The notes below the pieces were generated by a model that was given only the letters and a program-made list of their open reading frames with translations, was not told the DNA's origin and made no database searches. A program made the position numbers and the translations under genes. A stretch of 64,000 nt of DNA from positions 32,371-96,370 of the forward strand of contig CAZWZQ010000004.1 of the NCBI GenBank assembly GCA_964638955.1, written 5' to 3'. This stretch comes from an uncultured Rikenellaceae bacterium. Its GTDB lineage: Bacteria; Bacteroidota; Bacteroidia; Bacteroidales; VadinHA17. Shown piece after piece: positions 6,885 through 59,913 of this stretch; position 1 is the stretch's first letter, and every line of letters begins with the position of its first letter.

Positions 6885-7042
6885 AATGCTATATGACAGC
6901 ACATTATGACATTCTGCATTAAACCGGAATAATATTGCTGTTAAAAAAATACCAATAGTGTTAATATTTCTGATACTCAGGTGATACAATGTATTTACAT
7001 TATATATACTTTCGCACCAATTATTTTTTAAATAGTATTAAT

Positions 7043-9319: not shown

Positions 9320-10287
9320 GCACGAAGCGATGCTGTATACTATTTAACCAGCCGCGCGATGATGCCCTGCCAGATGAACTGGATGTGCTTGACCAGGTTG
9401 ATTTCGTAGAGAAAAACATCAATTTGCTGGATATTGAAACCTTCAGGAAAGGTATTACTGATGACTTCATGAATGAGGTAGCAGTACTTGCTGCCGATAA
9501 ACCGGATTTTGTTTTTAACCTGGTCGAATCAATTAACAACAGAGGTGAATTATGCTACTTCATTCCGGCACTGCTGAATATGCACTCATTACCTTATTCC
9601 GGAAGCCCTCTGGAGGCAATATTCATTACCACAAGTAAGGTTCTTACAAAAAAAACACTAAAAAAGGCAGGTATAAATACTCCTCAGAGTTATTCTCCAT
9701 CAGAATTCAGCAAGCTTGTTCCAGGCAATAAGTATATCATAAAACCTGTTTGGGAAGATGGCTCTTTAGGTATTACAGGTGACAGTGTTTTCACTTATCA
9801 GCCCGGCTTTGAGGTCAGGTTTAAAGATTATAGTGATAATCACTGGTTCATTGAAGAATACATTGACGGCAGGGAATTTAATATAAGCTTGATTTACAGT
9901 GATAAGGGACCGGAAGTATTGCCTCCGGCCGAAATAATCTTTCATAATTATACGGAAGATAAACCGCGTATTGTTGATTTTAAAGCAAAGTGGGAAGCAG
10001 GCAGCTTTGAATATGAAAACACCATCAGGGACTTTCCCGGCGATGATCTGAATCCGGTTCTGAAGGAAAGGATCACATCTACAGCCCTGCAGTGCTGGAA
10101 TGAATTCAGATTAAAAGGTTATGCACGTATCGATATGCGTATTGACAGTAATAATACTCCTTATGTTATTGAAGTGAATGCAAATCCCTGCCTCTCTCCC
10201 GATGGTGGTATTGTGGCAGCAACAATTGCAGCAGAGCTGCCGTTTACAGATGTCCTTCAACGTATTATTGCTGACTTAAACACCTGA
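9316..10287 (+). CDS. ATP-grasp ligase of the D-alanine--D-alanine ligase-like family (paralog 2)
   Basis: 323 aa with the motif ..GYARIDMRIDSNNTPYVIEVNANPCLSPDG... Its start overlaps the stop of paralog 1 by 4 nt, indicating translational coupling. Confidence 0.75.
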   Translation: MSTKRCCILFNQPRDDALPDELDVLDQVDFVEKNINLLDIETFRKGITDDFMNEVAVLAADKPDFVFNLVESINNRGELCYFIPALLNMHSLPYSGSPLEAIFITTSKVLTKKTLKKAGINTPQSYSPSEFSKLVPGNKYIIKPVWEDGSLGITGDSVFTYQPGFEVRFKDYSDNHWFIEEYIDGREFNISLIYSDKGPEVLPPAEIIFHNYTEDKPRIVDFKAKWEAGSFEYENTIRDFPGDDLNPVLKERITSTALQCWNEFRLKGYARIDMRIDSNNTPYVIEVNANPCLSPDGGIVAATIAAELPFTDVLQRIIADLNT

Positions 10288-47715: not shown

Positions 47716-47907
47716 ATGAGTTCAACGGAAATAATATTAATAATCGTTGCCTTTATCGCGCTCGGATTCAGCCTGTACAGGAGGTTCAAAGGAAAAGGGC
47801 AGGGACCGGGTGGTCCGCAGTCGGGTCAGAGGTCAGGATCATCATTCTCATCACATTCAGAAGATGGTGATTATGAACCATATTCTAAAAGTAACAGGCA
47901 GAATTGA
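47716..47907 (+). CDS. small single-TM protein with a Gly/Ser/Gln-rich tail (hypothetical)
   Basis: 63 aa: MSSTEIILIIVAFIALGFSLYRRFKGKGQGPGG... The TM helix is clean. The ORF ends exactly where the convergent HlyD gene ends. Confidence 0.4.
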   Translation: MSSTEIILIIVAFIALGFSLYRRFKGKGQGPGGPQSGQRSGSSFSSHSEDGDYEPYSKSNRQN

Positions 47908-49200
47908 TCATCTGCTTTTGTTTCTGGATATAAGATACCTGAACGGATTAATAATCTTTTGAATTAATCTTAAATCTTCAGTAACTATTTCCGCCGTTCC
48001 CTGCATATTCTGGGAAAAATCGAGTTCCCGTCCATACAGGGTTGTTAGTCCTTTTGGAAGGAATACTTCTATTATATAGGCATCACCGGAAGGTACAAGA
48101 GATTTCGAACTAACTACACCCCTGATCATACCATATTCCAGATAAGGGAACCCACTCAGCTTTATATTTACAATCTGGTCAATCTTCACTTTCCCGGATC
48201 GTTGCATTTTCAGGTTTATTCTGCCAACGAAATCACCAGTCTCTTCCGGTACAATAGATAATACAGGCTGATCGACAGTAACAGACTGATTTTCACTCCA
48301 GTACTTAGTAAAAGCCACTTTGCCCTCAAAAGGAGAAATAAGAAGGTAATTGTTTTGCCATATCTTCATTTGTGCTTTAAGGTTCAGTAATGCTTCCTCC
48401 AGTGCGGAAATTAGTTTCTCCTTATCGGTCTGTCTGTTTATCCTGTAATCCTGAAGCATCTGCCTTTTTTCAGCAAGTTCAATTACCTTGGCTGAATGAT
48501 CAAGCCTGACTTCCTGTAGTTCCAGGCTGGTTCTGATAAATGATTGTCTCGAATTTTCTATATCGCTCTCAGAATAAACCTTGCCGGAATACAGTATTGA
48601 ATCTCTTTCATATTTCCTTTTTTCTATCTCCAGATTCTGGGCGACAAGATCCTCCTTGATCTTTATCCTTTCAATATATTCCTGTATTCCTTCTATTTCC
48701 CCGGTTATTGATTGTATTTTATTTCCATACAAATCATTGGTTATATATGTATTATAATCCGAAAGCACCTTCATGAAGGATGCATAATATGCCTGGAGCT
48801 CACCAAGCTCATAAAGATCAGGAAATGATTCAGTTACTAACGCATCAGGTTTTTTGATTGTATCAATGATTGTCCTGAGCAGATCTATTTCACTTATTGA
48901 TGCCGCAGTCTCCATCACTGCAAGGAGTCTTCCCGGCAAAACCTTTTCTCCGTCACTTACATATAATTTATTTATCCGGCCTGTTATTTTACTAACCAGT
49001 GTTACCGGCGGATTTACAGTGGTAATCTCAATAGGTGCAGGTACTACATCGGGGTATTTTATCAACCATGATAATAATATTAATACAGCGAATACAAGGA
49101 ATATCACAGTTGTCCCCCATCTTATTATCCTCCTGGGCGGATTTGAGATTATTTCCTTAACAGCATCAGAATATAGTATCTCAGGTTTGTTATTTTTCAT
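47908..49200 (-). CDS. HlyD-family secretion adaptor (bacteriocin/peptide exporter accessory)
   Basis: 430 aa with an N-terminal TM helix, coiled-coil and barrel regions. It lies 9 nt downstream of the C39-ABC gene. Confidence 0.85.
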   Translation of the reverse strand: MKNNKPEILYSDAVKEIISNPPRRIIRWGTTVIFLVFAVLILLSWLIKYPDVVPAPIEITTVNPPVTLVSKITGRINKLYVSDGEKVLPGRLLAVMETAASISEIDLLRTIIDTIKKPDALVTESFPDLYELGELQAYYASFMKVLSDYNTYITNDLYGNKIQSITGEIEGIQEYIERIKIKEDLVAQNLEIEKRKYERDSILYSGKVYSESDIENSRQSFIRTSLELQEVRLDHSAKVIELAEKRQMLQDYRINRQTDKEKLISALEEALLNLKAQMKIWQNNYLLISPFEGKVAFTKYWSENQSVTVDQPVLSIVPEETGDFVGRINLKMQRSGKVKIDQIVNIKLSGFPYLEYGMIRGVVSSKSLVPSGDAYIIEVFLPKGLTTLYGRELDFSQNMQGTAEIVTEDLRLIQKIINPFRYLISRNKSR

Positions 49201-49209
49201 CTTCCCTGT

Positions 49210-51396
49210 TTACTTTCCGAGTTCAAGCTGGTTTTTCACCAGGTTAAAATAGGCTCCTTTATTTTGAATAAGGGATTCATGAGTTCCGGTTTCGACTATT
49301 CTTCCGTTATCCATAACAATAATTTTATCAGCATCCCGAACCGTACTTAGCCTGTGAGCAACTATTATCACCGTTTTGCCTTTAAAGAAATCCGCAAGAT
49401 TCTCAACGATTGCCTTTTCATTATTTGCATCGAGTGAATTGGTGGCTTCATCAAAAATAATTATCTCAGGATCCTTATAGACAACCCGTGCTATCAGAAG
49501 TCTTTGCATTTGTCCCTCACTCAATCCATGTCCATTCGCGCCAATTTTTGTATTATAACCGAGAGGCAGCGACTCTATGAATCCCTTAATATTTGCTATC
49601 TCAGCGGCTTTCACCATTTTATCCTCATCAATTTCAGCTATCCCGGGGGCAATATTTGATGCTATCGATTCAGGAAAAAGAAATCCATCCTGCATTACCG
49701 CTCCCGTCTTTTCGCGCCATATTCTAAGGCTGAGATTTGGGAGGCGAGTATCACCAATAAGTATCTCTCCTGCTACCGGTTTATAAAACCCAAGCAACAG
49801 CTTCAGCAGTGTTGTCTTACCGCTACCGCTGGTCCCTACAATTGCCGTTGTTTTATTTTCCTCAATATAAAGGTCAACATCTTTAAGTGCATACGGTGAA
49901 TTAGGTCCCTCATACTGAAATGACACATTATTTATAAAAAGATCCTTTTTTTCGGGAAGCTTTCTCACCTTCATCCCGGGTTCATGCTCCTCATTTTCCA
50001 TTTCATGCACTTCGGCCAGTCTGTTAAGGCTCATCTTTGCGTCCTGCGACATCCGGAAAAAACTAATGATCTGGTTCACAGGTACATTCAACTGGCCTAT
50101 TATGAACTGGACTGCGAGCATCATACCAAGGGTCATTGCTCCTTTCAGAACGGCTGTTGCAGCAACAACAGTTATCAGCAGGTTTGTGACCTCATTGATG
50201 AATGTTGCTCCTGCTGACTGATACTGAATGATACCAAGTCCTTTTACCTTTAGTCCGAACAGAGTTGCCTGCAGCCTTTCCCAGTCCCATCTTTTACTTG
50301 TCTCGCTCTGTGTCAGTTTTATCTCCTGTATCCCGTTCACAATGTTTATAAGTTTGCTGCCTGCAATTGACATCTGCTTAAAACGCTGATGATCGAGTTT
50401 TGCTCTCGGCTGCATGAACAACGATATCCATAAAATATACATTATTGTTCCTGCCAGGAACAGAGTAAGTATCTTGATGCTGAAAATTGCCAGTACTATT
50501 CCGAATATTACCAGGTTAAAGAATGAGAATAATATAGAAAGGCTTGCTGATGTCAGGAATTCTTCGATCCTGTTGTTATCTTCTATCCTCTGGAGAATGT
50601 CCCCTGTTAGTTTCGTATCAAAAAATGATATCGGCAATGACATCAGTTTCTGGAGGAAACCGGAAATTATAGCCACGTTGACCCGGGTTCCGATATGTAA
50701 AAGAAGCCATCCCCTGATAAATTCCACCGACATTCGTCCTATTACCAGAGCAAGCTGGGCAAAAAGAATCAGGTAAATAAAGCCTATATCGTTATTATTC
50801 AGACCAATATCAACTATCGACTGTGTCAGGAAAGGGATAATGAGCTGTATACAGCTTCCAATCAGCAGACCAAGGATAAGCTGATAAAAATACTTATCAT
50901 AAAGCCTGAAGTATTTAAAAAGAAATCTGAATCCACGTGATTTTTCATGTTCGCTTTCCTTTTCAAAAAATGCAGGTGTAGGCTCAATTATCAAAACAAG
51001 TCCTGCCGGTTTACCATCGGCCATTGTGGATGCCCAGTTCCTTGTAAATTCCTCCCTGTCATATTTTACCGGTCCTACTGCAGGATCGGCTGCCCATATT
51101 TTGTCATTTTTAATTTTATATACTACTATAAAATGACGCTGTTTCCAGTGCACTATACATGGCAAAGGGACATTCCCGGTGAGCATTTCAAAGGGAATCT
51201 TAACTCCAATGGTCCGGAAGCCAAGAGAATCAGCAGCTTCAGAAAGACCTAAGAATGATACTCCTTCCCTGGTTATAAAACACCTCTTGCGGATAGATTC
51301 GAGAGAAAAGCTTTTCTTATAAAACGCTGCAACCATTTTCAGACATGCAGGTCCGCAATCCATGGCATCAGGCTGTTTTACAAAAGGAAAAGACAT
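49210..51396 (-). CDS. peptide-cleaving ABC exporter with an N-terminal C39 cysteine-peptidase domain
   Basis: 728 aa. The catalytic Cys is retained (..QPDAMDCGPACLKMV..) and there is a His-containing ..HFIVVYKI.. segment. It has 6 TM helices, Walker A ..GTSGSGKTT.., the signature ..LSEGQMQR.. and Walker B ..IIIFDEAT... Confidence 0.9.
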   Translation of the reverse strand: MSFPFVKQPDAMDCGPACLKMVAAFYKKSFSLESIRKRCFITREGVSFLGLSEAADSLGFRTIGVKIPFEMLTGNVPLPCIVHWKQRHFIVVYKIKNDKIWAADPAVGPVKYDREEFTRNWASTMADGKPAGLVLIIEPTPAFFEKESEHEKSRGFRFLFKYFRLYDKYFYQLILGLLIGSCIQLIIPFLTQSIVDIGLNNNDIGFIYLILFAQLALVIGRMSVEFIRGWLLLHIGTRVNVAIISGFLQKLMSLPISFFDTKLTGDILQRIEDNNRIEEFLTSASLSILFSFFNLVIFGIVLAIFSIKILTLFLAGTIMYILWISLFMQPRAKLDHQRFKQMSIAGSKLINIVNGIQEIKLTQSETSKRWDWERLQATLFGLKVKGLGIIQYQSAGATFINEVTNLLITVVAATAVLKGAMTLGMMLAVQFIIGQLNVPVNQIISFFRMSQDAKMSLNRLAEVHEMENEEHEPGMKVRKLPEKKDLFINNVSFQYEGPNSPYALKDVDLYIEENKTTAIVGTSGSGKTTLLKLLLGFYKPVAGEILIGDTRLPNLSLRIWREKTGAVMQDGFLFPESIASNIAPGIAEIDEDKMVKAAEIANIKGFIESLPLGYNTKIGANGHGLSEGQMQRLLIARVVYKDPEIIIFDEATNSLDANNEKAIVENLADFFKGKTVIIVAHRLSTVRDADKIIVMDNGRIVETGTHESLIQNKGAYFNLVKNQLELGK

Positions 51397-51497
51397 CTCT
51401 CTTTCGGAAATAGGTTGTTAGATCAGATAAAGATATTTATATTTTAAATAGGACATAGCGATACTCCTTATAAAATCAAATCCTGCTTCATCTTTCA

Positions 51498-51527
51498 ATA
51501 GTATTCGTGTGTGAAATACTATATTTG
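51498..51527 (+). promoter_or_regulatory. inverted repeat overlapping a perfect -7 box upstream of the sigma-factor gene
   Basis: ATAGTATT (51498-51505), a 9-nt spacer, then AATACTAT (51515-51522). TATATTTG (51520-51527) fits the Bacteroidota TAnnTTTG consensus and lies about 27 nt before the sigma start. Confidence 0.45.
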
Positions 51528-51553
51528 CCAGTTGATACTGTATCATTGCGGGC

Positions 51554-52120
51554 TTGTTTAAAAGAATTTCAGATAAGAACATAATTGAGGGTATTAAAAA
51601 TCAGGACGATAAAACCCTGGAATGGCTGTATGATAATTATTTTCAAACAGTTAAAAATCATGTCATTAGAAACAGCGGTACTGAAGAGGATGTTTCTGAT
51701 GTATTTCAGGATTCAATCATCGTATTGTACAGCCAGATCACTGAAAACAGTCTTAAACTAACTACAGACCTGAAGGGTTATTTTTTCGGAGTGGCACGAA
51801 ATGTCTGGAATGCCCAGTTGAGAAAAAAGAGAAAAATCAGAGAACTTGACATCGATATACCCGATGAAGCGGATGCTGATGAATCAAATGAACTGTTGTT
51901 TGAACGAATTATTTCGAAGGCTTTCCAGAAACTAAAACCCGACTGTCAGACAATACTTACTTTGTACTCTGAGGGAATATCTTATGATGAGATTTCAGTC
52001 AGAATGAATCTTAAAAATGAGATTTATGCACGCAGGAAGAAGTATCTCTGCAAGGAATTGCTTATGGAACTTGTAAAAAAGGATCCCGAATATCAGGAGT
52101 ATTTACGGTACCTTAGATGA
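51554..52120 (+). CDS. sigma-70 family (ECF-like) RNA polymerase sigma factor
   Basis: 188 aa with a region-2-like segment ..EEDVSDVFQDSIIVLY.. and a region-4 HTH ..ILTLYSEGISYDEISVRMNL... The track uses a TTG start. Confidence 0.75.
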   Translation: MFKRISDKNIIEGIKNQDDKTLEWLYDNYFQTVKNHVIRNSGTEEDVSDVFQDSIIVLYSQITENSLKLTTDLKGYFFGVARNVWNAQLRKKRKIRELDIDIPDEADADESNELLFERIISKAFQKLKPDCQTILTLYSEGISYDEISVRMNLKNEIYARRKKYLCKELLMELVKKDPEYQEYLRYLR

Positions 52121-55100
52121 TAAGCCATTATTATAACCAGGATAAGTACGAAACATCCTGCAGTTATCGTCAGAATTCGTGAAGAAAAAACCGGGGAAAC
52201 GTCGCCATATATAACCAGGGAAGACCAGAAGTAAGGATGGGATTTCAGCTGGCTTGCATTTTTCAGATATGCTTGCCTGGCTCTCTTCAATGATACACTT
52301 TTTGATTTTCCTTTCAGCAGGTTATCATAAAATAATTTGATTATTTCGGTTCCGGACCGGTCTTCTATCTCCCACATTGACATTACAACTGACTGACTGC
52401 CTGAATACAGGAATCCACGTGCAAGACTCAGGATTCCTTCACCTGACGATAATGAACCGGAACCGGTATTGCATGAGCTGAGTACCACCATTCGGGCTTT
52501 CAAGGGGATCCCATAAACCTCATAGGTATTCAGCAATCCATCTTCAGGCATATCACCGTTTTGCATGAATATCATTGCAGAGTTCATAGGATTTTTGTCA
52601 TTAAGGTATGTATGCATCGCCAGGTGAATAATATCATATTTCCCTGCTTCAGCCTTAAAAACAGATTCCCTGGCATTGTCGTTCAAAAACAATACTCCTT
52701 CAGAAACACGTGCCACATATTCTGCCTCCTGGCGTGCATACGGAAGGTCATCCAGGATTTTGCCTCCTGTCTGCCGTTTCATGAATAACGAATCAACATT
52801 CAGGGTACCGGGATACATAGGAGCAAATGCAACAAGATTTTTTGCTCTGCCATATATACCATTTCCAGCCTCCTGCATAAATGAAACAGAATAAGTATAT
52901 GAAACACTGAAATCATTCATCAGATAGGGCAATTTTCGATACATAATGTCTTCCCCGTCATAAGTCGAAGTTAAAAGTGTTTCATATGGAAGGTAAGAGA
53001 GCATATTATCGGGAGAGATTAGCAGATCGGGCGAAATGAAATATTTCCGGACAGGCTCAATCAGTGTTTTATAGAGATCATATCCGACTTCCTGATATGA
53101 ATTGAAGTTCTTTCTCGCATGTGCTGACAGATCAGGGTTTGAGAGATGCTTCCTGAAATCCATGATTCTGTTAATGAAAACAGAATCTATTTTAACTGTT
53201 GTAAGATGCTGATGTTTCCGGTTTACTACCAGGATATAAAGCACGGAATCTGAAACGATGTAGTTCAGATAATTGCCTTTATGCCCTATTATTGAGGGAA
53301 CATCCTCCATTGACGGTACTGCAGTATTGTATTTTAAGGTATAGTATTCCGGATAATCGCGTTCGTATGTTAAGATCAGCGAGTCCCTTTTTTTTATAAC
53401 TTCCAGCAGATTCGCATTCCATTCTGACAGCATCTCCTTTTGAGGTTTTTCTTTTTCATTCTCCGCAGATATCCTGGAGTTATAATATCCTATCTCTCTT
53501 TGAAGAGAATGTTCAAGCTCTGCAATTGCCTGTGGAATATGGAAGTTAACTGCATTTAGTTCGCGAGTAGCTGCAAGCAATCCCGCCACCTTACTCTTTT
53601 CTGCGTACTCAAAAGCTTTTTCAAGAAATCTTTGTTCTCCGGTACTTCTGAAACATAGTTCAAAGTCACGTATTGAATTAAGATATGATCTCCTGTAATT
53701 GTCTCCCAGGATAATCCTGCTCTCCTCTTCGCTTATGTTTATCCTTATTCTTTCGATCAGGTTTATCACTAATTCAGAAGTAGATGCAGCTGATACAAGG
53801 ACTTCATATTCTTCAGATACTTCATACAAGTTCCATAATATATCATATTTAGTCTTAAATATCCGTAATGTGCGATTGTCTGCTTTAAGCATGTCGGGAT
53901 CAGGATTTTCATAAAGATCAGGTGTTACCCCCGGAGCTACATCAGAAAACAGAAGCTCCTGAATCTTTTTCAGTGCCTTTTGGGATTCTCCGGTTTCTGA
54001 CAACGCCATTGCATATCCGGTGATCACCGGTTCTCTTAAAGTAACCTCATCATTGTGACGGTCGAGGTAATCAAGACAAAGCAAATAGTAATTTAATGAA
54101 TTCTGATAATCATGGATATAGATCCTCAGATATTCAGCATAATTCTTGAGCACTTCAGCATAAAATCTTGAATCAGTACCAAATACGGCTTTTGCTTTCA
54201 CAAGCAGAGCCGAGAGTAATTCTACACCACTGGATATCTTTCCGGCATTACCCAGCTCAATTGCATAGCTGTTGATCATATTATATGCCAGATATGAGTC
54301 ATTGGCTTCTGCCATCTCAATTCCCCTTTCAAAATATTCTGCTTCCTTTTCTGTTAATACCAGCTTGCCGTATGTTATCGCCATGTTGTTGATCAGATTG
54401 ATATAGTTCTGATTATTAGATACAACACCTTTATTAAGGATCGACTCGGCTTCTTCAAAATAAATTCTTGCCTTTGCATAATCATATAGGCGTGCATAGC
54501 CAGCTCCTATGTTAATATAAAGATTGCTAAGTTCATCATCAGTAAAGATGTTCTTATTAGAATTCAGGATTTCAAGTGTCAGGAATGTATATTTTCGGAA
54601 ATTCTCGTAATCCTTATTTTCAAGAGAAGCTCCGATAACGGTTGAATACGCAGTTGCAATCTCAGGGCTATAAGAACCGTATAACTTTGTACCGATATCG
54701 ATATACTGAAGCATATAATCGATTACTCTGTCGAATTCACCCAGGTAGTTATAAGCCACTCCAAGATTGTAGATTCCTTTAGCATAATGATCGTCAATGA
54801 CACCCTGCTTTTTTTTGAAATCTATAGAAAGATGCAGCCAGGGAAGAGCCTCTTTATGTCTTTCAGCAAGCAATTTGCAGACCCCTGTATAATAATATAT
54901 ATCAGCAAGTTCGGAGCTGTCAGAAATGCTTACTGCCAGATTCTTTATGAGTGTATCTGAAAGCGATAATAATCCGGCTGTATCTCCGGCAGAATAGAGT
55001 GTAATAATGGTTGACCCTATCCTTTCAAGTATAACAGGTTGCTTCTGTTGAACAGCTTTTACAGAAGATATGCATGTTATTCCTGAGATAAGGAGTACCG

Positions 55101-55167
55101 GCACAAAAAAACGCAATCTTTTTTTTCTTCTGTTCATAGGTATGTTTACAACCTTTATTTTTATCAA
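52093..55167 (-). CDS. TPR-CHAT protein (caspase-fold protease) with an N-terminal signal sequence and a C-terminal TM anchor
   Basis: 1024 aa. The N-terminus ..RRKKRLRFFVPVLLISGITCISSVKA.. is followed by about 600 aa of TPR-like repeats. The C-terminal CHAT domain has the His/Cys dyad motifs ..YDIIHLAMHT.. and ..MVVLSSCNTGSG... The terminal hydrophobic helix is ..ILTITAGCFVLILVIIMAYHL... Confidence 0.8.
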   Translation of the reverse strand: MIKIKVVNIPMNRRKKRLRFFVPVLLISGITCISSVKAVQQKQPVILERIGSTIITLYSAGDTAGLLSLSDTLIKNLAVSISDSSELADIYYYTGVCKLLAERHKEALPWLHLSIDFKKKQGVIDDHYAKGIYNLGVAYNYLGEFDRVIDYMLQYIDIGTKLYGSYSPEIATAYSTVIGASLENKDYENFRKYTFLTLEILNSNKNIFTDDELSNLYINIGAGYARLYDYAKARIYFEEAESILNKGVVSNNQNYINLINNMAITYGKLVLTEKEAEYFERGIEMAEANDSYLAYNMINSYAIELGNAGKISSGVELLSALLVKAKAVFGTDSRFYAEVLKNYAEYLRIYIHDYQNSLNYYLLCLDYLDRHNDEVTLREPVITGYAMALSETGESQKALKKIQELLFSDVAPGVTPDLYENPDPDMLKADNRTLRIFKTKYDILWNLYEVSEEYEVLVSAASTSELVINLIERIRINISEEESRIILGDNYRRSYLNSIRDFELCFRSTGEQRFLEKAFEYAEKSKVAGLLAATRELNAVNFHIPQAIAELEHSLQREIGYYNSRISAENEKEKPQKEMLSEWNANLLEVIKKRDSLILTYERDYPEYYTLKYNTAVPSMEDVPSIIGHKGNYLNYIVSDSVLYILVVNRKHQHLTTVKIDSVFINRIMDFRKHLSNPDLSAHARKNFNSYQEVGYDLYKTLIEPVRKYFISPDLLISPDNMLSYLPYETLLTSTYDGEDIMYRKLPYLMNDFSVSYTYSVSFMQEAGNGIYGRAKNLVAFAPMYPGTLNVDSLFMKRQTGGKILDDLPYARQEAEYVARVSEGVLFLNDNARESVFKAEAGKYDIIHLAMHTYLNDKNPMNSAMIFMQNGDMPEDGLLNTYEVYGIPLKARMVVLSSCNTGSGSLSSGEGILSLARGFLYSGSQSVVMSMWEIEDRSGTEIIKLFYDNLLKGKSKSVSLKRARQAYLKNASQLKSHPYFWSSLVIYGDVSPVFSSRILTITAGCFVLILVIIMAYHLRYRKYS

Positions 55168-55290
55168 GAATAAAACTAATGTTTTTTATTCAGGTTTTTT
55201 ATTTCCTAATTAGCTGATTACCTGTGTTTGTTATAAAAAATGCTTTTTTTCTGTTATTTTTATGTCACAAATCAGGGATATATGACATGT

Positions 55291-55323
55291 AGTATTGAAA
55301 TACCCTGAATTAGTTTCAATACT
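55291..55323 (+). promoter_or_regulatory. 10-bp perfect inverted repeat immediately upstream of the peptide gene
   Basis: AGTATTGAAA (55291-55300), a 13-nt spacer, then TTTCAATACT (55314-55323). It shares AGTATT/AATACT half-sites with the repeat at 51498-51522. Confidence 0.45.
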
Positions 55324-55327
55324 TAAA

Positions 55328-55477
55328 ATGAAAACAATGAAAACCCTGAATTACGAAAAAACGGAAGACATTTTTGCTGAGTTTGTATTGTCAAACGACG
55401 AAATGATTAAAGTACGTGGTGGTGAAGGTGAAGGTGAACCCATAATTCTACCTAATCCTCCACCGGTAAAAATCTGA
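55328..55477 (+). CDS. double-glycine-leader precursor peptide; predicted core EGEGEPIILPNPPPVKI
   Basis: MKTMKTLNYEKTEDIFAEFVLSNDEMIKVRGG|EGEGEPIILPNPPPVKI*. The leader fits the Bacteroidota GG-leader pattern (..LsxxEMxxixGG). An alternative ATG lies at 55337, and the track's TTG at 55295 is unlikely. A C39-ABC exporter lies 4 kb away. Confidence 0.7.
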   Translation: MKTMKTLNYEKTEDIFAEFVLSNDEMIKVRGGEGEGEPIILPNPPPVKI

Positions 55478-55490
55478 TAATAAATAAGAG

Positions 55491-55625
55491 GCCTGTCATT
55501 GAGACAGGTAATGATTTACCTGGTCGCAGGTAAATCGTAGGAAGCAGTCACATATTGTGACTCTGCAGGGAAGAGTACATTTAATACCAATTAATCTGAT
55601 GCTATATTTATGTGATATACAGCAT
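55491..55625 (+). terminator. cluster of four hairpins downstream of the peptide gene (attenuator or processing region)
   Basis: The hairpins are CCTGTC-attga-GACAGG (55492-55508), ATTTACCTG-gtcg-CAGGTAAAT (55514-55535, 9 bp perfect), AGTCACA-tat-TGTGACT (55546-55562) and the imperfect ATGCTATAT/ATATAcAGCAT (55599-55625). None has a clear U-run. Confidence 0.4.
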
Positions 55626-55669
55626 ATTAGATAATTAGTTTAATTAACAGAATTTTAAAAATACAGCAT

Positions 55670-56431
55670 ATGAAAGAAAATTTTATTAAACCAATCGACT
55701 TTTCTTATTTCATCGAAAGGTATAACTCGGGTGAAATGAATGAAGCTGAACTGACATGGTTCCGCAAAGAACTGGATGGAAATGAACAGCTTCGGAGAGA
55801 AGTAGAATTAAGGAAAAAAGCTGATATGGTTCTTAAAAACCATGATGTTATTCAGTTACGAAGTAAGCTTTCAAATATTGAGAGTAAAAGGGCAGCAGAA
55901 GAACCTGTTAAAATCCGGGTTAAGCGTATTCCACTAGGATATGCTGCAGCAATTGCCGGTTTTATCCTGGTTAGCAGTATTTTTCTATTTAACGGCAGGA
56001 AGCTGACCAGTGATGAAATTCTCGACCGGTTCTACAAATCTTATGAGGTTACTTCACCCTCAAGGTCTCAACAAGCCATTTTAAATTCTGATTATTCAAC
56101 GGCAATTGAATTCTACAACATCCGTGATTACAGAAATGCTGCCCTTTATTTCAGTAAAGTACTGTCAGAGGATCCGAAATACATGGAATCCACCATGTTA
56201 TACGGAGTTTCCAATTTCGAGATCAAAGACTACCCGGAAGCAAAGCATTCATTCATGAAGGTTATTGATGATAACGATAACCTGTTTTTAGAGGATGCTG
56301 AATGGTACCTTGCTCTATGTTACCTTAAAACCCAAGAAACGGAAAAAGCTGCTGATGTGCTGGATCAGATAAAAAGATCGGAAAGCATATATAAAAAGGA
56401 TGCAGCACGGATAATGAGAAAAATGAAATAA
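55670..56431 (+). CDS. single-pass membrane protein, anti-sigma-like: cytoplasmic helical N-domain and extracytoplasmic TPR domain
   Basis: 253 aa with a TM helix ..IPLGYAAAIAGFILVSSIFLF.. at roughly residues 87-107. The C-terminal ~145 aa have TPR-like repeats (..AIEFYNIRDYRNAALYFSKVL.., ..AEWYLALCYLKTQETEKAADVL..). There is no zinc-finger anti-sigma motif. Confidence 0.55.
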   Translation: MKENFIKPIDFSYFIERYNSGEMNEAELTWFRKELDGNEQLRREVELRKKADMVLKNHDVIQLRSKLSNIESKRAAEEPVKIRVKRIPLGYAAAIAGFILVSSIFLFNGRKLTSDEILDRFYKSYEVTSPSRSQQAILNSDYSTAIEFYNIRDYRNAALYFSKVLSEDPKYMESTMLYGVSNFEIKDYPEAKHSFMKVIDDNDNLFLEDAEWYLALCYLKTQETEKAADVLDQIKRSESIYKKDAARIMRKMK

Positions 56432-56461
56432 ATATATATCTCCTTATTATTCTATTTCAGG

Positions 56462-57268
56462 ATGGATATTGATAAAGACAGAGAGGAATGTGGCGGATTA
56501 AAGGATTTGAATTCTTTAACTAATATGATAAACTGCCCCACAGTACTGCACGGTATGTCTCATGAAGTGAGAACACACATGAATGCAATAGTAGCGCTTT
56601 CATTCCTCATAAACAGAAATAATTGCAATAAAAAGGAACGCGAAGAATACAGTGACCAGATCCTTGCCTCATGTGAGCAGCTTATAGGCCTTTTTGATAA
56701 TTTTCTCGATTCAGCAATAATTGAAACAGGTGGTAATTCACAAACAAACTTAAATATCTGCAAACTCAACAATCTTCTGGAAGATCTTTTTTCAGAATTC
56801 AGGGTAATACTTAAAAAGGAAGTCTATAAGGATTTGACACTAATCACCAACAACAATCTTAATGAAGCAACCGGGGTTTTTATTGATTCTGACAGGGTGT
56901 TCAGGGTAATTCGTAACCTTTTTCAGAATGCACTTAAAAATACCACATCAGGTTATATTAAGATTGGTTATTCTTTCAGGGATAATGAGGTGACTTTTTA
57001 CGTAATCGACTCCGGCCAGGGTTATTTCAAATGCAAAGAATTTCTTCATACAGAGGATTTAAACGACTCGCTGACTCAATACAATGATACAATTTCAGCG
57101 ATAAACCTGACCCTGGCCAAAAAATTAATCAGCATGCTGGGCGGAACACTATGGATAGAGTGCAATGGCATCACCGGCACCGGTATTTATTTTTCCATAC
57201 CGGTCAAAATTGCGGAAAGCTCAGATATCAACATAAATAAGTTTGTCAATACCATGATCGCAATCTGA
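56462..57268 (+). CDS. soluble histidine kinase core (HisKA plus HATPase_c) without a sensor domain
   Basis: 268 aa with the H-box ..MSHEVRTHMNAI.. about 40 aa from the N-terminus, N-box ..RNLFQNALKNT.., G1 ..VIDSGQG.. and G2 ..GITGTGIYF... It has no TM helix. No response regulator is present in the window. Confidence 0.75.
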   Translation: MDIDKDREECGGLKDLNSLTNMINCPTVLHGMSHEVRTHMNAIVALSFLINRNNCNKKEREEYSDQILASCEQLIGLFDNFLDSAIIETGGNSQTNLNICKLNNLLEDLFSEFRVILKKEVYKDLTLITNNNLNEATGVFIDSDRVFRVIRNLFQNALKNTTSGYIKIGYSFRDNEVTFYVIDSGQGYFKCKEFLHTEDLNDSLTQYNDTISAINLTLAKKLISMLGGTLWIECNGITGTGIYFSIPVKIAESSDININKFVNTMIAI

Positions 57269-59283: not shown

Positions 59284-59913
59284 TCAGGGTATATGCATAT
59301 ATTTATGGACCTGGAGAGATATCCTCCATACGCTATTGTTTTTAACATAATCAACAATTTCCGTTATAATCCTTTCGAAGCTGCTCCATTCAGGTTGAAG
59401 AAAAAGCCGGCATTTCTCATTAACCTGATTACGATATTCTTCGGCCCACTCAAAATCGGCTTTTTCCTGAATAACTACTTTCAGTTCGTCGGCCACCTTG
59501 CATATTTCAGGAACGGGCTTCATGTTTTTTTTAGGAGAGAGACATATCCAGTCCCATTTGCCTGTAAGGGGATATGCTCCCGATGTTTCAAGGTAAGTGG
59601 AGATATTCTTTTTTTTCAACTTGGAACACAGATAATCAAGATTCCACATGAGAGGTTCGCCTCCTGTTATTACTACAGAATCCGTTCCGGAATTAATTAT
59701 ACGGTTTGCAATATCATCAGCATTTGTCATTGGGTGTATTTCAGGATCCCAGGTGAAAGGTGAATCACACCAGCTGCATCCTATATCACAGCCTCCAAGT
59801 CGTATGAAATATGCTGCTTTCCCGGTATGGAATCCTTCGCCCTGGATTGAAAAAAAATCTTCTACAAGTGGTAATTTTTTCCCTTGCGTATTTTGTTCCG
59901 GTTGTTTTATCAT
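59284..59913 (-). CDS. queE: 7-carboxy-7-deazaguanine synthase (radical SAM)
   Basis: 209 aa with ..FFSIQGEGFHTGKAAYFIRLGGCDIGCSWCDS.., the QueE N-terminal cluster motif. Confidence 0.85.
   Translation of the reverse strand: MIKQPEQNTQGKKLPLVEDFFSIQGEGFHTGKAAYFIRLGGCDIGCSWCDSPFTWDPEIHPMTNADDIANRIINSGTDSVVITGGEPLMWNLDYLCSKLKKKNISTYLETSGAYPLTGKWDWICLSPKKNMKPVPEICKVADELKVVIQEKADFEWAEEYRNQVNEKCRLFLQPEWSSFERIITEIVDYVKNNSVWRISLQVHKYMHIP

What the first reader, a model, noticed from the sequence alone, without database searches (positions are those of the whole stretch)
47908..57268. Candidate secreted-peptide sensing and regulated-proteolysis module: C39-ABC exporter, HlyD, ECF-like sigma, TPR-CHAT, GG-leader peptide, membrane TPR anti-sigma-like protein and a sensor-less histidine kinase
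Seen in the sequence:
- A HlyD adaptor (47908-49200, minus strand).
- An ABC exporter whose C39 peptidase domain keeps its catalytic Cys (49210-51396, minus strand).
- A divergent ECF-like sigma factor (51554-52120).
- A 1024-aa TPR-CHAT protein with an intact His/Cys dyad (52093-55167, minus strand).
- A 46-49 aa gene with a textbook double-glycine leader (55328-55477).
- A single-pass membrane protein with an external TPR domain (55670-56431).
- A minimal histidine kinase (56462-57268).

Established knowledge:
- C39-ABC/HlyD pairs cleave after GG and export the core peptide.
- CHAT domains are caspase-fold cysteine proteases.
- ECF sigma factors are typically freed by proteolysis of a membrane anti-sigma factor.
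- TPR domains act as peptide receptors in RRNPP-type quorum sensing.

Inference:
- The locus has no RiPP-modifying enzyme and no obvious immunity gene.
- The predicted 17-aa core is acidic and Pro-rich and has no Cys, Ser or Thr, so a secreted signal seems more likely than a bacteriocin.
- A plausible circuit is as follows. The peptide is exported, then sensed by one of the extracytoplasmic TPR domains. The CHAT protease then acts on the anti-sigma-like protein, and the sigma factor is released.

I know of no described peptide-signalling system in Bacteroidota coupled to a CHAT protease.
Basis: partly seen in the sequence, partly recalled or inferred. Interest (0 to 1): 0.8.

Follow-up and report, generated by a model that had tools for sequence, protein, structure and literature searches.

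The report
Peptide-linked caspase-like protease sigma-factor switch
An uncultured Bacteroidales genome carries a conserved, undescribed gene module in which a periplasmic caspase-like (TPR-CHAT) protease, a membrane anti-sigma factor and an ECF sigma factor are coupled to a small exported peptide whose gene carries the promoter predicted for that sigma factor; this may be a new kind of peptide-controlled gene switch in Gram-negative bacteria.

Summary
**Observation: confirmed.** All seven genes are at the stated coordinates. Their domains and catalytic motifs are intact.

**Core module.** The core is a triad:
- an ECF-type sigma factor;
- a single-pass anti-sigma-like protein with a periplasmic TPR domain;
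- a periplasmic, membrane-anchored TPR-CHAT protease.

The triad recurs in many Bacteroidota loci with unrelated flanks. The same logic is known from DdvA/DdvS and from craspase Csx29/Csx30/CASP-sigma. Here the protease and the anti-sigma are separate proteins.

**Accessory parts.**
- GG-leader peptide: three lineages.
- C39-ABC/HlyD exporter: two lineages.
- Histidine kinase: two lineages.

**Promoter.** GTCACAAA-N13-ACATGTA (55264-55291) precedes the peptide gene in every locus that covers the region. In sister lineages a related GGTAACA-type motif precedes the peptide, kinase, sigma-operon and RiPP-maturase genes. The peptide is therefore a predicted target of the sigma factor.

**Still inferred.**
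- CHAT cleaves the anti-sigma.
- The peptide feeds back on the system.

Covariation between peptide position -9 and anti-sigma K170 is suggestive only.

**Verdict.** This is a new variant of a known kind, and no prior description was found.

The parts
47908..49200 (-). HlyD-family membrane-fusion (adaptor) protein, 430 aa, one N-terminal TM helix
   Evidence: Pfam HlyD_3 E 1.4e-6 and TIGR01843 E 3.5e-21. TM helix at residues 29-47. Conserved next to the ABC gene in 70/80 loci and again in L089.
49210..51396 (-). C39-peptidase ABC exporter, 728 aa (peptide cleavage/export type)
   Evidence: Peptidase_C39 2.4e-35, ABC_membrane 6e-28, ABC_tran 5.3e-30. TIGR01193 and TIGR03796 about 1e-127 to 1e-134, both below the curated cutoffs. 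C14/H88/D104 motifs and Walker A/B intact.
51397..51553 (.). Divergent sigma/ABC intergenic region with conserved Bacteroidetes sigma-A-type boxes (TATATTTG towards sigma). It does not contain the peptide-type motif.
   Evidence: Phylogenetic footprint over 80 sequences. The -7 consensus TAnnTTTG is from my own knowledge.
51554..52120 (+). ECF-type sigma factor, 188 aa. Its 3' end overlaps the 3' end of the CHAT gene by 28 bp (convergent genes).
   Evidence: TIGR02937 53.3 bits, above the 42.9 cutoff. Present in 79/80 loci. 32% identical (E 4e-19) to the sigma gene that overlaps a TPR anti-sigma gene next to CHAT in Ekhidna.
52093..55167 (-). TPR-CHAT protease, about 1014-1024 aa. N-terminal signal-like segment, about 550 aa of TPR, a CHAT caspase-fold domain, a C-terminal TM helix and a conserved R(K/R)YS tail. 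The bulk is predicted to be periplasmic.
   Evidence: CHAT 183.7 bits. H848/H852/C899 invariant. Hydrophobic segments at residues 18-36 and 998-1016. CHAT-domain model pLDDT 89. Foldseek: Csx29 E 1e-14, separase about 3e-10, DdvA 8rot 4.8e-10.
55262..55292 (+). Conserved ECF-like promoter motif (family consensus GTGTCACAAA-N11-CCGACATGTAG). It lies 36-45 nt upstream of the two candidate peptide ATGs in the window.
   Evidence: One exact match in the window, with 0 expected by chance. Exactly one exact match in each of 64 of the 80 genome loci, always upstream of the peptide gene and with fixed spacing. Found in 78/78 loci that cover the region when mismatches are allowed. Lies directly upstream of the anti-sigma gene in L073, where the peptide is deleted.
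55328..55477 (+). GG-leader peptide precursor (49 aa, or 46 aa from 55337). Predicted core EGEGEPIILPNPPPVKI.
   Evidence: Family of 76 sequences. Leader ...F.LS.EEMI.VRGG. Core ends P-I-[IVL]-[KL]-P-x-x-P-P-[VI]-[KR]-I, with Pro at -5 in 76/76. No named family.
55492..55508 (+). Hairpin directly after the peptide stop codon, conserved as CCTGTTT...AAACAGG plus a T-rich tail. Probably a partial terminator or attenuator ahead of the anti-sigma and kinase genes.
   Evidence: Footprint. The terminator scan flagged a terminator-like site at these coordinates, but on the - strand. Rfam has no match.
55670..56431 (+). Single-pass anti-sigma-like protein, 253 aa. Cytoplasmic N-domain (1-88), TM helix (89-107), periplasmic linker with conserved R132, and a TPR domain (about 140-253).
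   Evidence: TPR families. TM helix. 16/37 family members hit anti-sigma NF052375. Overlapping sigma/TPR operons in distant loci. R132, A157 and W212 are the only nearly invariant residues.
56462..57268 (+). Soluble histidine kinase with only DHp and CA domains, 268 aa, and no sensor domain. No response regulator gene nearby.
   Evidence: HisKA 8.1e-8 and HATPase_c 2.7e-10. H34 in HEVR, N-box and G1 box present, no TM helix. Lost in 7 of the 80 loci. In L086, L088 and L094 a PAS-containing homologue has its own sigma-type promoter.

Best explanation
This is a chromosomal signal-transduction module, and its core is a split version of a TPR-CHAT-controlled ECF sigma switch.

**Proposed mechanism**
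1. The sigma factor (51554-52120) is held at the inner membrane by the single-pass anti-sigma-like protein (55670-56431).
2. The TPR-CHAT protein (52093-55167) sits in the periplasm, anchored by a C-terminal TM helix. It acts as the signal-dependent site-1 protease and cuts the periplasmic part of the anti-sigma. The candidate site is the conserved Arg132 in the juxtamembrane linker.
3. Intramembrane and cytoplasmic proteases then free the sigma factor.
4. The freed sigma factor transcribes from the conserved GTCACAAA-N13-ACATGTA promoter. That promoter drives the operon GG-peptide -> (attenuator hairpin) -> anti-sigma -> sensor-less kinase.
5. The peptide precursor is cut after Gly-Gly and exported by the adjacent C39-ABC/HlyD pair.
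6. The mature 12-21-mer has a conserved C-terminus (P-I-x-[KL]-P-x-x-P-P-[VI]-K-I). It binds a periplasmic TPR domain, most likely that of the anti-sigma, and feeds back on the switch. My best guess is positive autoinduction, as in ComC/ComDE.
7. The kinase carries the output on to an unknown response regulator.

**Shown computationally**
- Gene content and catalytic residues.
- Conservation of the module in unrelated genomic contexts.
- The promoter motif.
- Predicted topology and fold.

**Inferred**
- Every biochemical step.
- The sign of the feedback.

**My probability for each step**
- The triad is one functional unit: about 0.9.
- The peptide operon depends on this sigma factor: about 0.7.
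- The peptide is exported by the adjacent ABC transporter: about 0.8.
- CHAT cleaves the anti-sigma: about 0.55.
- The peptide acts back on the triad: about 0.45.
For: **Triad linkage**
- The sigma and TPR-membrane genes sit next to a TPR-CHAT gene, often overlapping each other, in Ekhidna and in L085-L087 with unrelated flanks.
- The same holds in 17 of 80 diverse metagenome loci at strict thresholds.

**Anti-sigma identity**
- 16/37 family members hit NF052375. Others hit NF047528, PRK13920 or zf-HC2.

**Protease**
- The His/His/Cys motif is invariant in 91 sequences.
- The fold matches craspase Csx29, separase and DdvA.
- Both characterised bacterial TPR-CHAT systems are proposed or shown to control an ECF-type sigma factor through its inhibitor.

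**Topology**
- CHAT protein: signal-like N-terminus, C-terminal TM helix and a basic tail.
- Anti-sigma: N-in, C-out.

**Candidate cleavage site**
- R132 is one of only three nearly invariant residues in the anti-sigma family.

**Promoter and regulon**
- The motif occurs once per locus, always upstream of the peptide gene, and upstream of the anti-sigma gene in L073.
- In sister lineages the related, non-palindromic motif AGGTAACAATTT...TTCC.ATTAA lies upstream of the peptide, kinase, sigma-operon and maturase genes. It gives 0 hits in 954 kb of shuffled sequence.

**Peptide-triad link**
- GG-leader peptides are adjacent to CHAT genes in L086/L088 and L089, and next to CHAT genes in L092 and L095, where no sigma gene was detected.
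- An I-I-[KI]-P-x-x-P-type motif recurs in the L086/L088 peptides and at the C-terminus of the L087 protein upstream of CHAT.
- The exporter is linked again in L089.

**Covariation**
- Peptide position -9 against anti-sigma K170: Fisher p 2e-9, while control proteins reach 4e-5 at best.
- This column ranks first of about 2,950 column tests in nearest-pair contrasts.
Against: - There is no experimental or expression data, and every host is an uncultured MAG.
- Synteny within the 80 genome loci also includes housekeeping genes (pyrG, queE, a PorE-like gene). That synteny alone proves nothing.
- Most distant triads have no GG peptide. The triad can therefore work without one and must sense something else in those lineages.
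- L073 lost the peptide and the kinase but kept CHAT and the exporter.
- The strict same-branch parsimony test did not support the covariation.
- The window's own TPR protein does not reach anti-sigma models by itself.
- The promoter could instead be an operator, because TGTCA-N15-TGACA is an inverted repeat.
- A peptide exported across both membranes would have to re-enter the periplasm. No outer-membrane channel or uptake gene lies in the locus.
- In L089 the peptide is probably a modified RiPP. That fits a 'product' role as well as a 'signal' role.
Confidence: 0.5

Rival explanations
1. Output-only model. The sigma/anti-sigma/CHAT triad senses some other envelope or environmental cue. The peptide is simply a secreted product under its control, for example an antimicrobial, a protease inhibitor or a signal to other organisms. 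It does not feed back on the switch.
For: - The peptide gene carries the predicted sigma-dependent promoter, so it is an output.
- Many triads lack any peptide and must sense something else.
- In L089 the same promoter type drives a GG precursor plus an MvdC/MvdD-type ATP-grasp maturase beside the exporter. That is a typical RiPP cluster.
- C39-ABC/HlyD pairs classically export bacteriocins and microcins (TIGR01193 match).
- Five identical tandem peptide genes in L050 suggest selection for high yield.
Against: - The peptide sits at a fixed core-genome locus in 76 of 77 species-level genomes. It is not strain-variable.
- There is no immunity gene.
- The core is 12-21 aa and mostly acidic or neutral.
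- A similar Pro-rich motif recurs in different carriers next to CHAT genes.
- There is suggestive covariation with the anti-sigma TPR domain.
Confidence: 0.3
2. Negative-feedback model. The exported peptide is a pseudosubstrate or shield (securin-like). It inhibits the CHAT protease, or protects the anti-sigma TPR domain from cleavage. Sigma activity would then induce both new anti-sigma and a protease inhibitor, which resets the switch.
For: - The peptide and the anti-sigma share one sigma-type promoter, and ECF operons usually encode negative regulators.
- Separase, which has the same fold, is held by a pseudosubstrate inhibitor. The DdvA paper says securin inhibits separase; the pseudosubstrate detail is my own knowledge.
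- Pro-rich peptides resist proteolysis (my own knowledge).
- The sister-lineage peptide is graspetide-like, and graspetides such as microviridins are protease inhibitors. The maturase match is; the inhibitor function is my own knowledge.
- The either/or lysine pattern with anti-sigma K170 suggests contact with the substrate protein.
Against: - There is no direct evidence.
- The gene order (GG peptide, then membrane receptor, then kinase, with a separate C39-ABC) resembles autoinducing ComC/BlpC circuits (my own knowledge).
- Microviridins inhibit serine proteases, not clan CD cysteine proteases (my own knowledge).
Confidence: 0.15
3. No module. The seven genes are neighbours only because this Bacteroidales clade has a collinear chromosome. 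The exporter and peptide form an unrelated bacteriocin-type cassette, and the kinase is unrelated.
For: - pyrG, DUF349, the PorE-like gene and queE are just as syntenic in the 80 genome loci.
- Ekhidna and most distant triads have no C39-ABC within 10 kb.
Against: - The triad recurs with unrelated flanks.
- The peptide recurs beside CHAT in L086/L088 and L089.
- The exporter recurs in L089 in a different gene order and with different flanks.
- The kinase recurs in L086, L088 and L094 with the shared promoter motif.
Confidence: 0.03
4. Defence-island regulator. Like DdvA/DdvS or craspase, the module senses phage infection and switches on anti-phage genes located elsewhere in the genome.
For: Both characterised bacterial TPR-CHAT/sigma systems control defence genes.
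Against: - PADLOC gives no defence-family hit apart from generic ABC ATPase matches.
- The neighbours are housekeeping genes.
- The only motif-bearing promoter in the window drives the peptide operon.
- The NCBIfam Csx29 model scores 16.8 bits against a cutoff of 300.
Confidence: 0.05

Closest known systems
[quoted passage not shown]
   Same: - Periplasmic TPR-CHAT with a His-Cys dyad.
- A single-pass anti-sigma and an ECF sigma factor.
- The CHAT domain is proposed to act as the site-1 protease ahead of RseP.
- The fold match is detected (Foldseek E 4.8e-10).
   Different: - Here the CHAT protein and the anti-sigma are separate polypeptides, each with its own TM anchor and its own TPR domain.
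- The anti-sigma N-domain has no Cys, so it is not a CHCC zinc ASD.
- No defence genes are nearby.
- A GG-leader peptide, an exporter and a kinase are attached.
- The DdvA authors report the fused type only in Myxococcota and one Comamonas.
Type III-E CRISPR craspase: Csx29 (TPR-CHAT), Csx30 and CASP-sigma (PMC10028731)
   Same: - A TPR-CHAT protease cleaves an inhibitor of an ECF-like sigma factor to release a transcriptional response.
- It is the best structural match (E 1e-14, TMq 0.58-0.61).
   Different: - Craspase is cytoplasmic and is activated by target RNA through Cas7-11.
- The system here is predicted to be periplasmic and membrane-anchored, and none of the genes I checked near it is a cas gene.
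- The NCBIfam Csx29 model scores 16.8 bits against a cutoff of 300.
ComC/ComDE-ComAB and BlpC/BlpHR-BlpAB peptide-pheromone circuits of streptococci (my own knowledge)
   Same: - An unmodified peptide with a GG leader.
- A C39-ABC transporter plus an accessory protein for cleavage and export.
- The peptide gene is co-transcribed with its putative membrane receptor and a kinase from a promoter the system itself is predicted to control.
   Different: - This is a Gram-negative host.
- The transducer is an anti-sigma/ECF sigma pair plus a CHAT protease, not a membrane histidine kinase and a response regulator.
- The kinase here has no sensor or TM domain, and no response regulator gene is nearby.
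DegS-RseA-sigmaE envelope-stress pathway of E. coli (my own knowledge; summarised in PMC10028731)
   Same: - A periplasmic protease cuts a single-pass anti-sigma.
- In DegS the trigger is binding of a peptide with a hydrophobic C-terminus (OMP Y-x-F-COOH). The peptide here ends in the conserved V/I-K-I-COOH.
   Different: - The protease is a caspase-fold CHAT with TPR repeats, not a PDZ serine protease.
- The peptide is a dedicated gene product, not a misfolded porin tail.
- Activation by the peptide is not shown here.
Class II microcin / bacteriocin export cassettes: GG-leader peptide, C39-ABC and HlyD-type MFP
   Same: - Canonical leader (hydrophobic at -4, -7 and -12, then GG).
- Intact C39 triad motifs.
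- An MFP partner.
   Different: - No immunity gene.
- The core is only 12-21 aa, acidic to neutral, and conserved in sequence across at least 76 species at a fixed core-genome site.
- It is tied to a sigma/anti-sigma/CHAT triad.

Membership tests
ECF (group IV) sigma-70 family | [quoted passage not shown] | tested here: met
   188 aa. TIGR02937 sigma70-ECF scores 53.3 bits, above the 42.9 cutoff. Pfam r2 (19 bits) and r4_2 (22 bits) are below their gathering scores.
ECF (group IV) sigma-70 family | Co-encoded cognate anti-sigma factor | tested here: met
   In distant relatives the sigma gene overlaps, or directly precedes, the TPR-membrane gene. 16/37 family members hit anti-sigma NF052375. 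In the window the CHAT and peptide genes separate the two.
ECF (group IV) sigma-70 family | Recognises a group-specific -35/-10 promoter, usually autoregulated | tested here: inconclusive
   A conserved motif with sigma-70-like geometry lies upstream of the peptide/anti-sigma operon. A related GGTAACA-type motif lies upstream of sigma operons in L085 and L089. Binding was not tested.
DdvA-type TPR-CHAT anti-sigma factor | Anti-sigma domain, TM helix and periplasmic TPR-CHAT in a single polypeptide | tested here: not met
   The anti-sigma-like protein (253 aa) and the TPR-CHAT protein (1024 aa) are separate genes on opposite strands.
DdvA-type TPR-CHAT anti-sigma factor | Zinc-binding CHCC anti-sigma domain | tested here: not met
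   Residues 1-88 of the TPR membrane protein contain no Cys (sequence). Only 2/37 family members hit zf-HC2.
DdvA-type TPR-CHAT anti-sigma factor | Periplasmic CHAT domain with a His-Cys dyad | tested here: met
   H848/H852/C899 are invariant. The topology prediction places the domain between a signal-like segment and a C-terminal TM helix. Foldseek hit to 8rot, E 4.8e-10.
Type III-E craspase (Csx29) | Association with Cas7-11/gRAMP, Csx30 and Csx31; cytoplasmic location | tested here: not met
   The NCBIfam Csx29 model scores 16.8 bits against a cutoff of 300. The neighbours I checked are housekeeping genes. The protein has a signal-like N-terminus and a TM anchor.
Peptide cleavage/export ABC transporter (C39-ABC, ComA/LagD type) | N-terminal C39 domain with a Cys/His/Asp triad, a 6-TM domain and an NBD | tested here: met
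   Peptidase_C39 2.4e-35. C14, H88 and D104 motifs. Walker A, signature, Walker B and H-loop present. TIGR01193 scores 427 bits, below its equivalog-style cutoff of 524.
Peptide cleavage/export ABC transporter (C39-ABC, ComA/LagD type) | A cognate substrate with a double-glycine leader encoded nearby | tested here: met
   Leader ...LSNDEMIKVRGG, 3.9 kb away. It is conserved in 76 loci. Cleavage itself cannot be tested here.
Class II bacteriocin / microcin locus | A dedicated immunity gene next to the structural gene | tested here: not met
   No small membrane ORF lies in the peptide operon. The only small TM protein (47716-47907) is convergent with hlyD and is absent from distant modules.
RRNPP quorum sensing | Cytoplasmic TPR receptor fused to an HTH or phosphatase domain; peptide re-imported by Opp | tested here: not met
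   Both TPR domains are predicted to be periplasmic. There is no HTH domain and no Opp gene in the locus.
RiPP (graspetide or other modified peptide) cluster | A maturase gene (ATP-grasp, rSAM, LanM and so on) next to the precursor | tested here: not met
   There is none in 47.9-57.3 kb. The radical-SAM gene at 59284-59913 is a small QueE-like enzyme that is conserved as a neighbour throughout the clade. Sister locus L089 does have an MvdC/D-type ATP-grasp.
Two-component system | Sensor kinase with an input domain, plus a cognate response regulator | tested here: not met
   The kinase has only HisKA and HATPase_c, and no TM helix. No receiver domain is encoded in the locus.

The most novel reading that the evidence does not exclude
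A Gram-negative, Bacteroidota-wide peptide autoinduction circuit of a new design. A linear, unmodified, self-produced GG-leader peptide is exported. It then binds the periplasmic TPR domain of an anti-sigma factor (around K170) or of a separate caspase-like TPR-CHAT protease. This licenses the protease to cut the anti-sigma at Arg132 and release an ECF sigma factor, which transcribes more peptide. That would be quorum or 'self' sensing through regulated proteolysis in place of a kinase or a cytoplasmic receptor. In sister lineages the same switch would control RiPP clusters.
Probability: 0.3. Interest if true: 0.85.

Novelty: new variant of a known kind. Interest (0 to 1): 0.72.

Why it matters
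- **Peptide signalling.** Gram-negative bacteria are thought to rely mainly on small-molecule autoinducers, and dedicated peptide signalling is essentially unknown in Bacteroidota. This module would make that idea directly testable.
- **Range of CHAT/sigma switches.** Bacterial caspase-like TPR-CHAT proteases have so far been tied to sigma-factor control only in two defence systems, craspase and DdvA. In DdvA the protease step is still hypothetical because the signal is unknown. Here the same logic sits in ordinary core-genome contexts across many Bacteroidota, so CHAT/anti-sigma/ECF switches would no longer be limited to defence systems.
- **Experimental handles.**
  - The protease and its presumed substrate are separate proteins.
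  - A candidate ligand is genetically encoded.
  - There is a predicted cleavage residue (R132), a predicted contact residue (K170) and a defined promoter.
- **Natural products.** In sister lineages the same switch appears to control RiPP biosynthesis, which bears on how natural-product clusters are regulated.

Tried and rejected
1. **Homology search with the sigma factor.** It found 1462 clusters, but the 120 listed were all at least 68% identical. It was useless for finding distant contexts.
2. **Full-length AlphaFold model from 12 sequences.** The CHAT domain had pLDDT below 50, so I did not use it for fold search. I replaced it with a CHAT-domain model built from 91 sequences.
3. **Sequence search of the PDB.** It returned only generic TPR hits.
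4. **Relaxed mismatch search for the window promoter motif in distant loci.** It gave pure noise. The useful signal came from reading the regions upstream of the distant peptide genes.
5. **Distant CHAT homologues P0105 and P0109.** They have no sigma or anti-sigma neighbour. Not every TPR-CHAT protein in Bacteroidota belongs to this module.
6. **PADLOC and Rfam.** No defence family and no RNA family.
7. **Hidden peptide ORFs in the long leaders upstream of the L085 and L089 sigma genes.** None found.
8. **Conserved RNA structure in the peptide 5' UTR.** No base pairs were predicted. The block AATTACCCTGAATTAGTATCAAT stays unexplained.
9. **Same-branch parsimony test of covariation.** It did not single out anti-sigma K170, so I downgraded the covariation to 'suggestive'.
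10. **Covariation of peptide position -2.** Control proteins (HlyD, PorE-like, DUF349) score just as strongly, so it is phylogenetic signal only.
11. **Supplements of the ECF reclassification paper.** They are not held, so I could not assign an ECF group number.
12. **Resemblance of the core C-terminus (PNPPPVKI) to apidaecin-type proline-rich antimicrobial peptides (recalled from memory).** I rejected it as a working model because the cores are acidic or neutral, not cationic.

Full report

Yes. All seven ORFs lie at the stated coordinates and strands.

HMM scans confirm each domain:
- **47908-49200(-):** HlyD_3.
- **49210-51396(-):** Peptidase_C39 (E 2.4e-35), ABC_membrane and ABC_tran.
- **51554-52120(+):** an ECF-type sigma factor. 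TIGR02937 scores 53.3 bits against a cutoff of 42.9. The Pfam r2 and r4_2 matches are only sub-threshold, so 'divergent' is a fair description.
- **52093-55167(-):** CHAT (183.7 bits) plus TPR_12.
- **55670-56431(+):** several TPR families.
- **56462-57268(+):** HisKA and HATPase_c.

Catalytic and structural motifs are intact:
- The C39 motifs are present: C14 in DCG, H88 in HF and D104 in DP. So are the ABC motifs.
- The CHAT residues H848, H852 and C899 are invariant in 12 orthologues. They are also invariant across 91 sequences that reach down to 23-34% identity.
- The kinase has its H-box, N-box and G1 box. It has no TM helix and no sensor domain.

The peptide ORF at 55328-55477 has a canonical double-glycine leader (...LSNDEMIKVRGG). 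It matches no Pfam or NCBIfam model.

**2. Who carries it, and a caveat about synteny**

The CHAT protein has about 100 full-length orthologues at 46-89% identity. All come from uncultured Bacteroidales or 'Rikenellaceae' MAGs.

In 80 species-level genomes the gene set is syntenic:

| Gene | Loci (of 80) |
|---|---|
| sigma | 79 |
| C39-ABC | 75 |
| TPR membrane protein | 74 |
| peptide | 72 by tblastn, 76 by HMM |
| HlyD | 70 |
| kinase | 65 |

The flanking housekeeping genes keep their places too: pyrG, a DUF349 protein, a PorE-like OmpA protein and a QueE-like radical-SAM enzyme. This clade simply has a collinear chromosome, so its synteny cannot show functional linkage. I therefore looked outside the clade.

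**3. The core is a sigma / anti-sigma / TPR-CHAT triad**

Distant CHAT homologues (25-30% identity) have entirely different neighbours, yet the triad is there:
- **Ekhidna sp. (L083):** the CHAT gene converges on an overlapping operon. It encodes a 181-aa sigma factor (32% identical to the window's, E 4e-19) and a 229-aa protein. That protein aligns collinearly with the window's TPR membrane protein and has a similar length.
- **L085, L086 and L087:** the same arrangement.
- **Metagenome scan:** a scan seeded with the distant CHAT proteins returned 80 diverse loci. At strict thresholds 17 of them have sigma and TPR-membrane genes beside the CHAT gene. Several more are cut off by contig ends.

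Overlapping sigma and membrane-protein genes are the signature of a sigma/anti-sigma pair.

More evidence on the anti-sigma identity:
- 16 of 37 family members hit NCBIfam 'anti-sigma factor' NF052375 (best E 5.6e-7). Others hit NF047528, PRK13920 or zf-HC2.
- The window's own protein does not reach these models alone. Its assignment rests on family membership and on the conserved N-terminal pattern (I..Y..G.LS..E...F...L..D).

Some TPR-CHAT paralogues (P0105, P0109) have no such partners.

**4. Topology and fold**

- The CHAT protein family has a signal-like N-terminal hydrophobic segment. It also has a C-terminal TM helix followed by an almost invariant basic tail, R(K/R)YS. Its TPR and CHAT domains should therefore face the periplasm.
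- The anti-sigma-like protein is N-in, C-out. It has about 88 cytoplasmic residues, one TM helix and a periplasmic TPR domain.
- A CHAT-domain model built from 91 sequences is confident (pLDDT 89, pTM 0.90).
- Its best structural matches are craspase Csx29 (E 1e-14, TMq about 0.6), separases (about 3e-10) and the anti-sigma DdvA (8rot, 4.8e-10).

**5. What is already known**

Two bacterial TPR-CHAT systems are linked to an ECF-type sigma factor through its inhibitor:
- **Craspase.** Csx29 cleaves Csx30, which inhibits CASP-sigma (PMC10028731).
- **DdvA.** This Myxococcus anti-sigma carries a periplasmic TPR-CHAT domain. That domain is proposed to self-cleave as the site-1 step before RseP acts (PMC11506125). 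The DdvA authors found fused proteins only in Myxococcota and one Comamonas.

The module here follows the same logic with different hardware:
- The protease and the anti-sigma are separate membrane proteins, and each has its own periplasmic TPR domain.
- The anti-sigma N-domain has no cysteines, so it is not a zinc ASD.
- No defence genes are involved.

I found no paper that describes this arrangement.

**6. The peptide belongs to the module and is a predicted sigma target**

*The peptide family* (76 sequences):
- The leader is conserved.
- The core is anchored at its C-terminus: P-I-[IVL]-[KL]-P-x-x-P-P-[VI]-[KR]-I-COOH. Pro at position -5 is invariant in 76 of 76.
- An acidic stretch of variable length precedes that motif.
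- No Cys, Ser or Thr position is conserved, so a linear, unmodified peptide is likely.
- Databases call the family 'hypothetical'.

*The promoter in the window clade:*
- Upstream of the peptide gene lies a strongly conserved motif, GTGTCACAAA-N11-CCGACATGTAG.
- The exact core GTCACAAA-N13-ACATGTA occurs once in the window, with 0 expected by chance.
- It occurs exactly once in each of 64 of the 80 genome loci, always with the same spacing and always upstream of the peptide gene.
- With mismatches allowed it is present in all 78 loci that cover the region.
- In L073 the peptide and kinase genes are deleted, and the motif sits directly upstream of the anti-sigma gene. The motif therefore heads a peptide -> anti-sigma (-> kinase) operon.
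- A conserved hairpin follows the peptide stop codon.
- The sigma/ABC intergenic region has housekeeping-type TAnnTTTG boxes and lacks this motif.

*Outside the clade:*
- **L086 and L088:** a GG-leader peptide (...VRGG|GTDGEGDGGASVIIIPKPPQ) lies directly upstream of the CHAT gene.
- **L089:** a GG-leader precursor lies between a C39-ABC/HlyD pair and the CHAT gene. The flanks are unrelated to the window's.
- **L087:** the protein upstream of CHAT ends ...DDLIIKPTNPYLECF.
- **L092 and L095:** other GG-leader peptides lie next to CHAT genes.

*The sister-lineage promoter:*
- A non-palindromic motif, AGGTAACAATTT-N-TTCC-ATTAA, has a -35 element that looks like a classic ECF GTAAC box (my own knowledge, by comparison with B. 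subtilis sigma-X).
- It occurs one to three times per locus in L085, L086, L088 and L089. Each copy lies upstream of one of these genes:
  - the peptide gene;
  - the kinase gene;
  - the sigma operon;
  - a small accessory gene;
  - in L089, an MvdC/MvdD-type ATP-grasp RiPP maturase.
- A site not used for training lies upstream of the L094 kinase.
- Shuffled sequence (954 kb) gives no hit at the same score.

This pattern looks like an ECF regulon. The window-clade motif aligns with it: GT[A/C]ACA, then TCC about 17-19 nt further on, then an A/T-rich -10 region. That similarity favours a promoter reading over an operator reading. The inverted repeat TGTCA-N15-TGACA in the window clade still leaves the operator reading open.

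**7. Does the peptide feed back on the switch?**

This is the weakest link in the model.

*In favour:*
- A similar Pro-rich motif recurs in different carriers next to CHAT genes.
- The gene order resembles ComC-type autoinducing circuits.
- Peptide position -9 switches between K/R and L/I/M. It shows an 'either/or lysine' relationship with anti-sigma residue K170, in the DPKYME loop of the periplasmic TPR domain:
  - Fisher p is 2e-9 over 338 tests.
  - Seven proteins from the same genomes reach 4e-5 to 3e-3 at best.
  - CHAT reaches 4e-7.
- In 26 nearest-neighbour contrasts this column scores 18:1. That is the top value among about 2,950 column tests. Control proteins peak at a net score of 12.

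*Against:*
- A strict same-branch parsimony test, with only 7 inferred peptide changes, does not single this column out.
- The nearest-neighbour pairs are not fully independent.
- Most distant triads have no peptide.
- L073 lost its peptide but kept CHAT and the exporter.
- The L089 peptide is probably a modified RiPP.

I therefore rate feedback by the peptide at about 0.45. I keep 'output only' (0.3) and 'negative-feedback inhibitor' (0.15) as live rivals.

**8. A candidate cleavage site**

- Across 37 anti-sigma family members, including 18-33% identical ones, only R132, A157 and W212 are nearly invariant.
- R132 lies about 25 residues after the TM helix, in a conserved linker: YYxP...(V/T)R(G/S/N).
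- Many clan CD proteases cut after Arg or Lys. Separase is cited. Gingipain R appears among the fold matches. The preference of metacaspases is my own knowledge.
- R132 is therefore a concrete prediction, but an untested one.

**9. The kinase**

- It has no input domain and no partner response regulator nearby.
- It is dispensable in 7 of the 80 genomes.
- In the window clade it is the last gene of the sigma-type operon. In L086, L088 and L094 a PAS-containing homologue has its own copy of the motif.
- The simplest reading is that the kinase is controlled through its transcription and relays the sigma output to a regulator encoded elsewhere. This is inference.

**10. Verdict**

- **Observation:** confirmed.
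partly supported. The module, the anti-sigma assignment and the proteolytic logic are well grounded in comparative evidence and precedent. Sensing of the peptide is plausible but unproven. The RRNPP analogy does not fit a periplasmic receptor.
  - the peptide operon is the predicted target of the sigma factor;
  - the triad is older and more widespread than the peptide.
- **Novelty:** a new variant of a known kind. It is a split, periplasmic TPR-CHAT / anti-sigma / ECF sigma switch, newly coupled to a GG-leader peptide and its exporter.
- **Limits:** everything is computational, and every host is uncultured.

Noticed in passing
window 47716-47907 (+): A 63-aa ORF encoding a single-TM protein, convergent with hlyD. 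It is conserved in 58 of the 80 clade loci, with a conserved C-terminal tail (S/D)DDYEPYSKK. It is absent from the distant modules. Its function is unknown, and it might be unrelated to the module.
   Followed up: partly
L050 8731-9643 (-): Five identical tandem copies of the peptide gene (MKTLNLTIDLLNEFTLSNDEMIAVRGGDGDPIVMPTQPPIII) with a 196-bp period. L074 has two diverged copies (9462-9778). This suggests selection for peptide dosage.
   Followed up: partly
L073 about 8900-10000: One species-level genome has lost both the peptide and the kinase genes. It keeps the sigma, CHAT, anti-sigma, ABC and HlyD genes. The promoter motif now sits directly upstream of the anti-sigma gene.
   Followed up: yes
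L089 4189-5115 (-) and 9182-9436 (+): In this sister lineage an MvdC/MvdD-family ATP-grasp RiPP maturase (TIGR04185, E 4.6e-24) lies beside HlyD and the C39-ABC gene and carries the sigma-type promoter. The GG-leader precursor has a long core rich in Thr, Asp and Lys. This looks like a graspetide-like cluster under control of the CHAT/sigma triad.
   Followed up: partly
window 55299-55322 (+); alignment A6: The block AATTACCCTGAATTAGTATCAAT, between the promoter motif and the peptide start codon, is conserved at the nucleotide level in most loci. Its distance from both the motif and the ATG varies. No RNA structure is predicted. It might be a binding site for another regulator.
   Followed up: partly
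window 52093-52120: The sigma and CHAT genes converge and their 3' ends overlap by 28 bp. The same convergent overlap is seen between the CHAT and anti-sigma genes in distant loci (for example L083 12844-12853). It could allow transcriptional interference or antisense coupling.
   Followed up: no
window 52096-52119 (C-terminus of the CHAT protein); proteins P0001-P0101: All CHAT orthologues end with a TM helix followed by an almost invariant cytoplasmic tail ...R(K/R)YS-COOH. R1021 is invariant and S1024 is nearly invariant in A1. The conservation is unexplained. The tail could be a docking or phosphorylation site, for example for the sensor-less kinase.
   Followed up: no
window 57341-59281 (-): A 646-aa TPR / PD40 / OmpA protein related to T9SS PorE and CHU_0125 (319 and 313 bits, both below the curated cutoffs). 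It follows the kinase gene on the opposite strand and keeps that position throughout the clade. It is probably housekeeping, but it is a periplasm-spanning envelope protein.
   Followed up: no
window 45275-47476 (-): A DUF349 protein (five repeats, 296 bits) with an extremely acidic, low-complexity N-terminal region of about 170 residues rich in Glu and Lys.
   Followed up: no
L092 3-262 (-); L095 8608-8919 (-): Other GG-leader peptides lie beside TPR-CHAT genes where no sigma gene was detected. L092 has two copies of MKNFEVVSTEELKNIKGG|MQDKAILDDCLV. L095 has ...LSYHEMSNIRGG|RRLWDPGDTVADDIDIPD.... The pairing of a peptide with a CHAT gene may be broader than this module.
   Followed up: no
L088 about 6880-6960: A short tandem array of CGGATT / TTTCGGATTGCCAAT-like units lies in the sigma-kinase intergenic region, just upstream of the sigma-type promoter of the kinase gene.
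   Followed up: no
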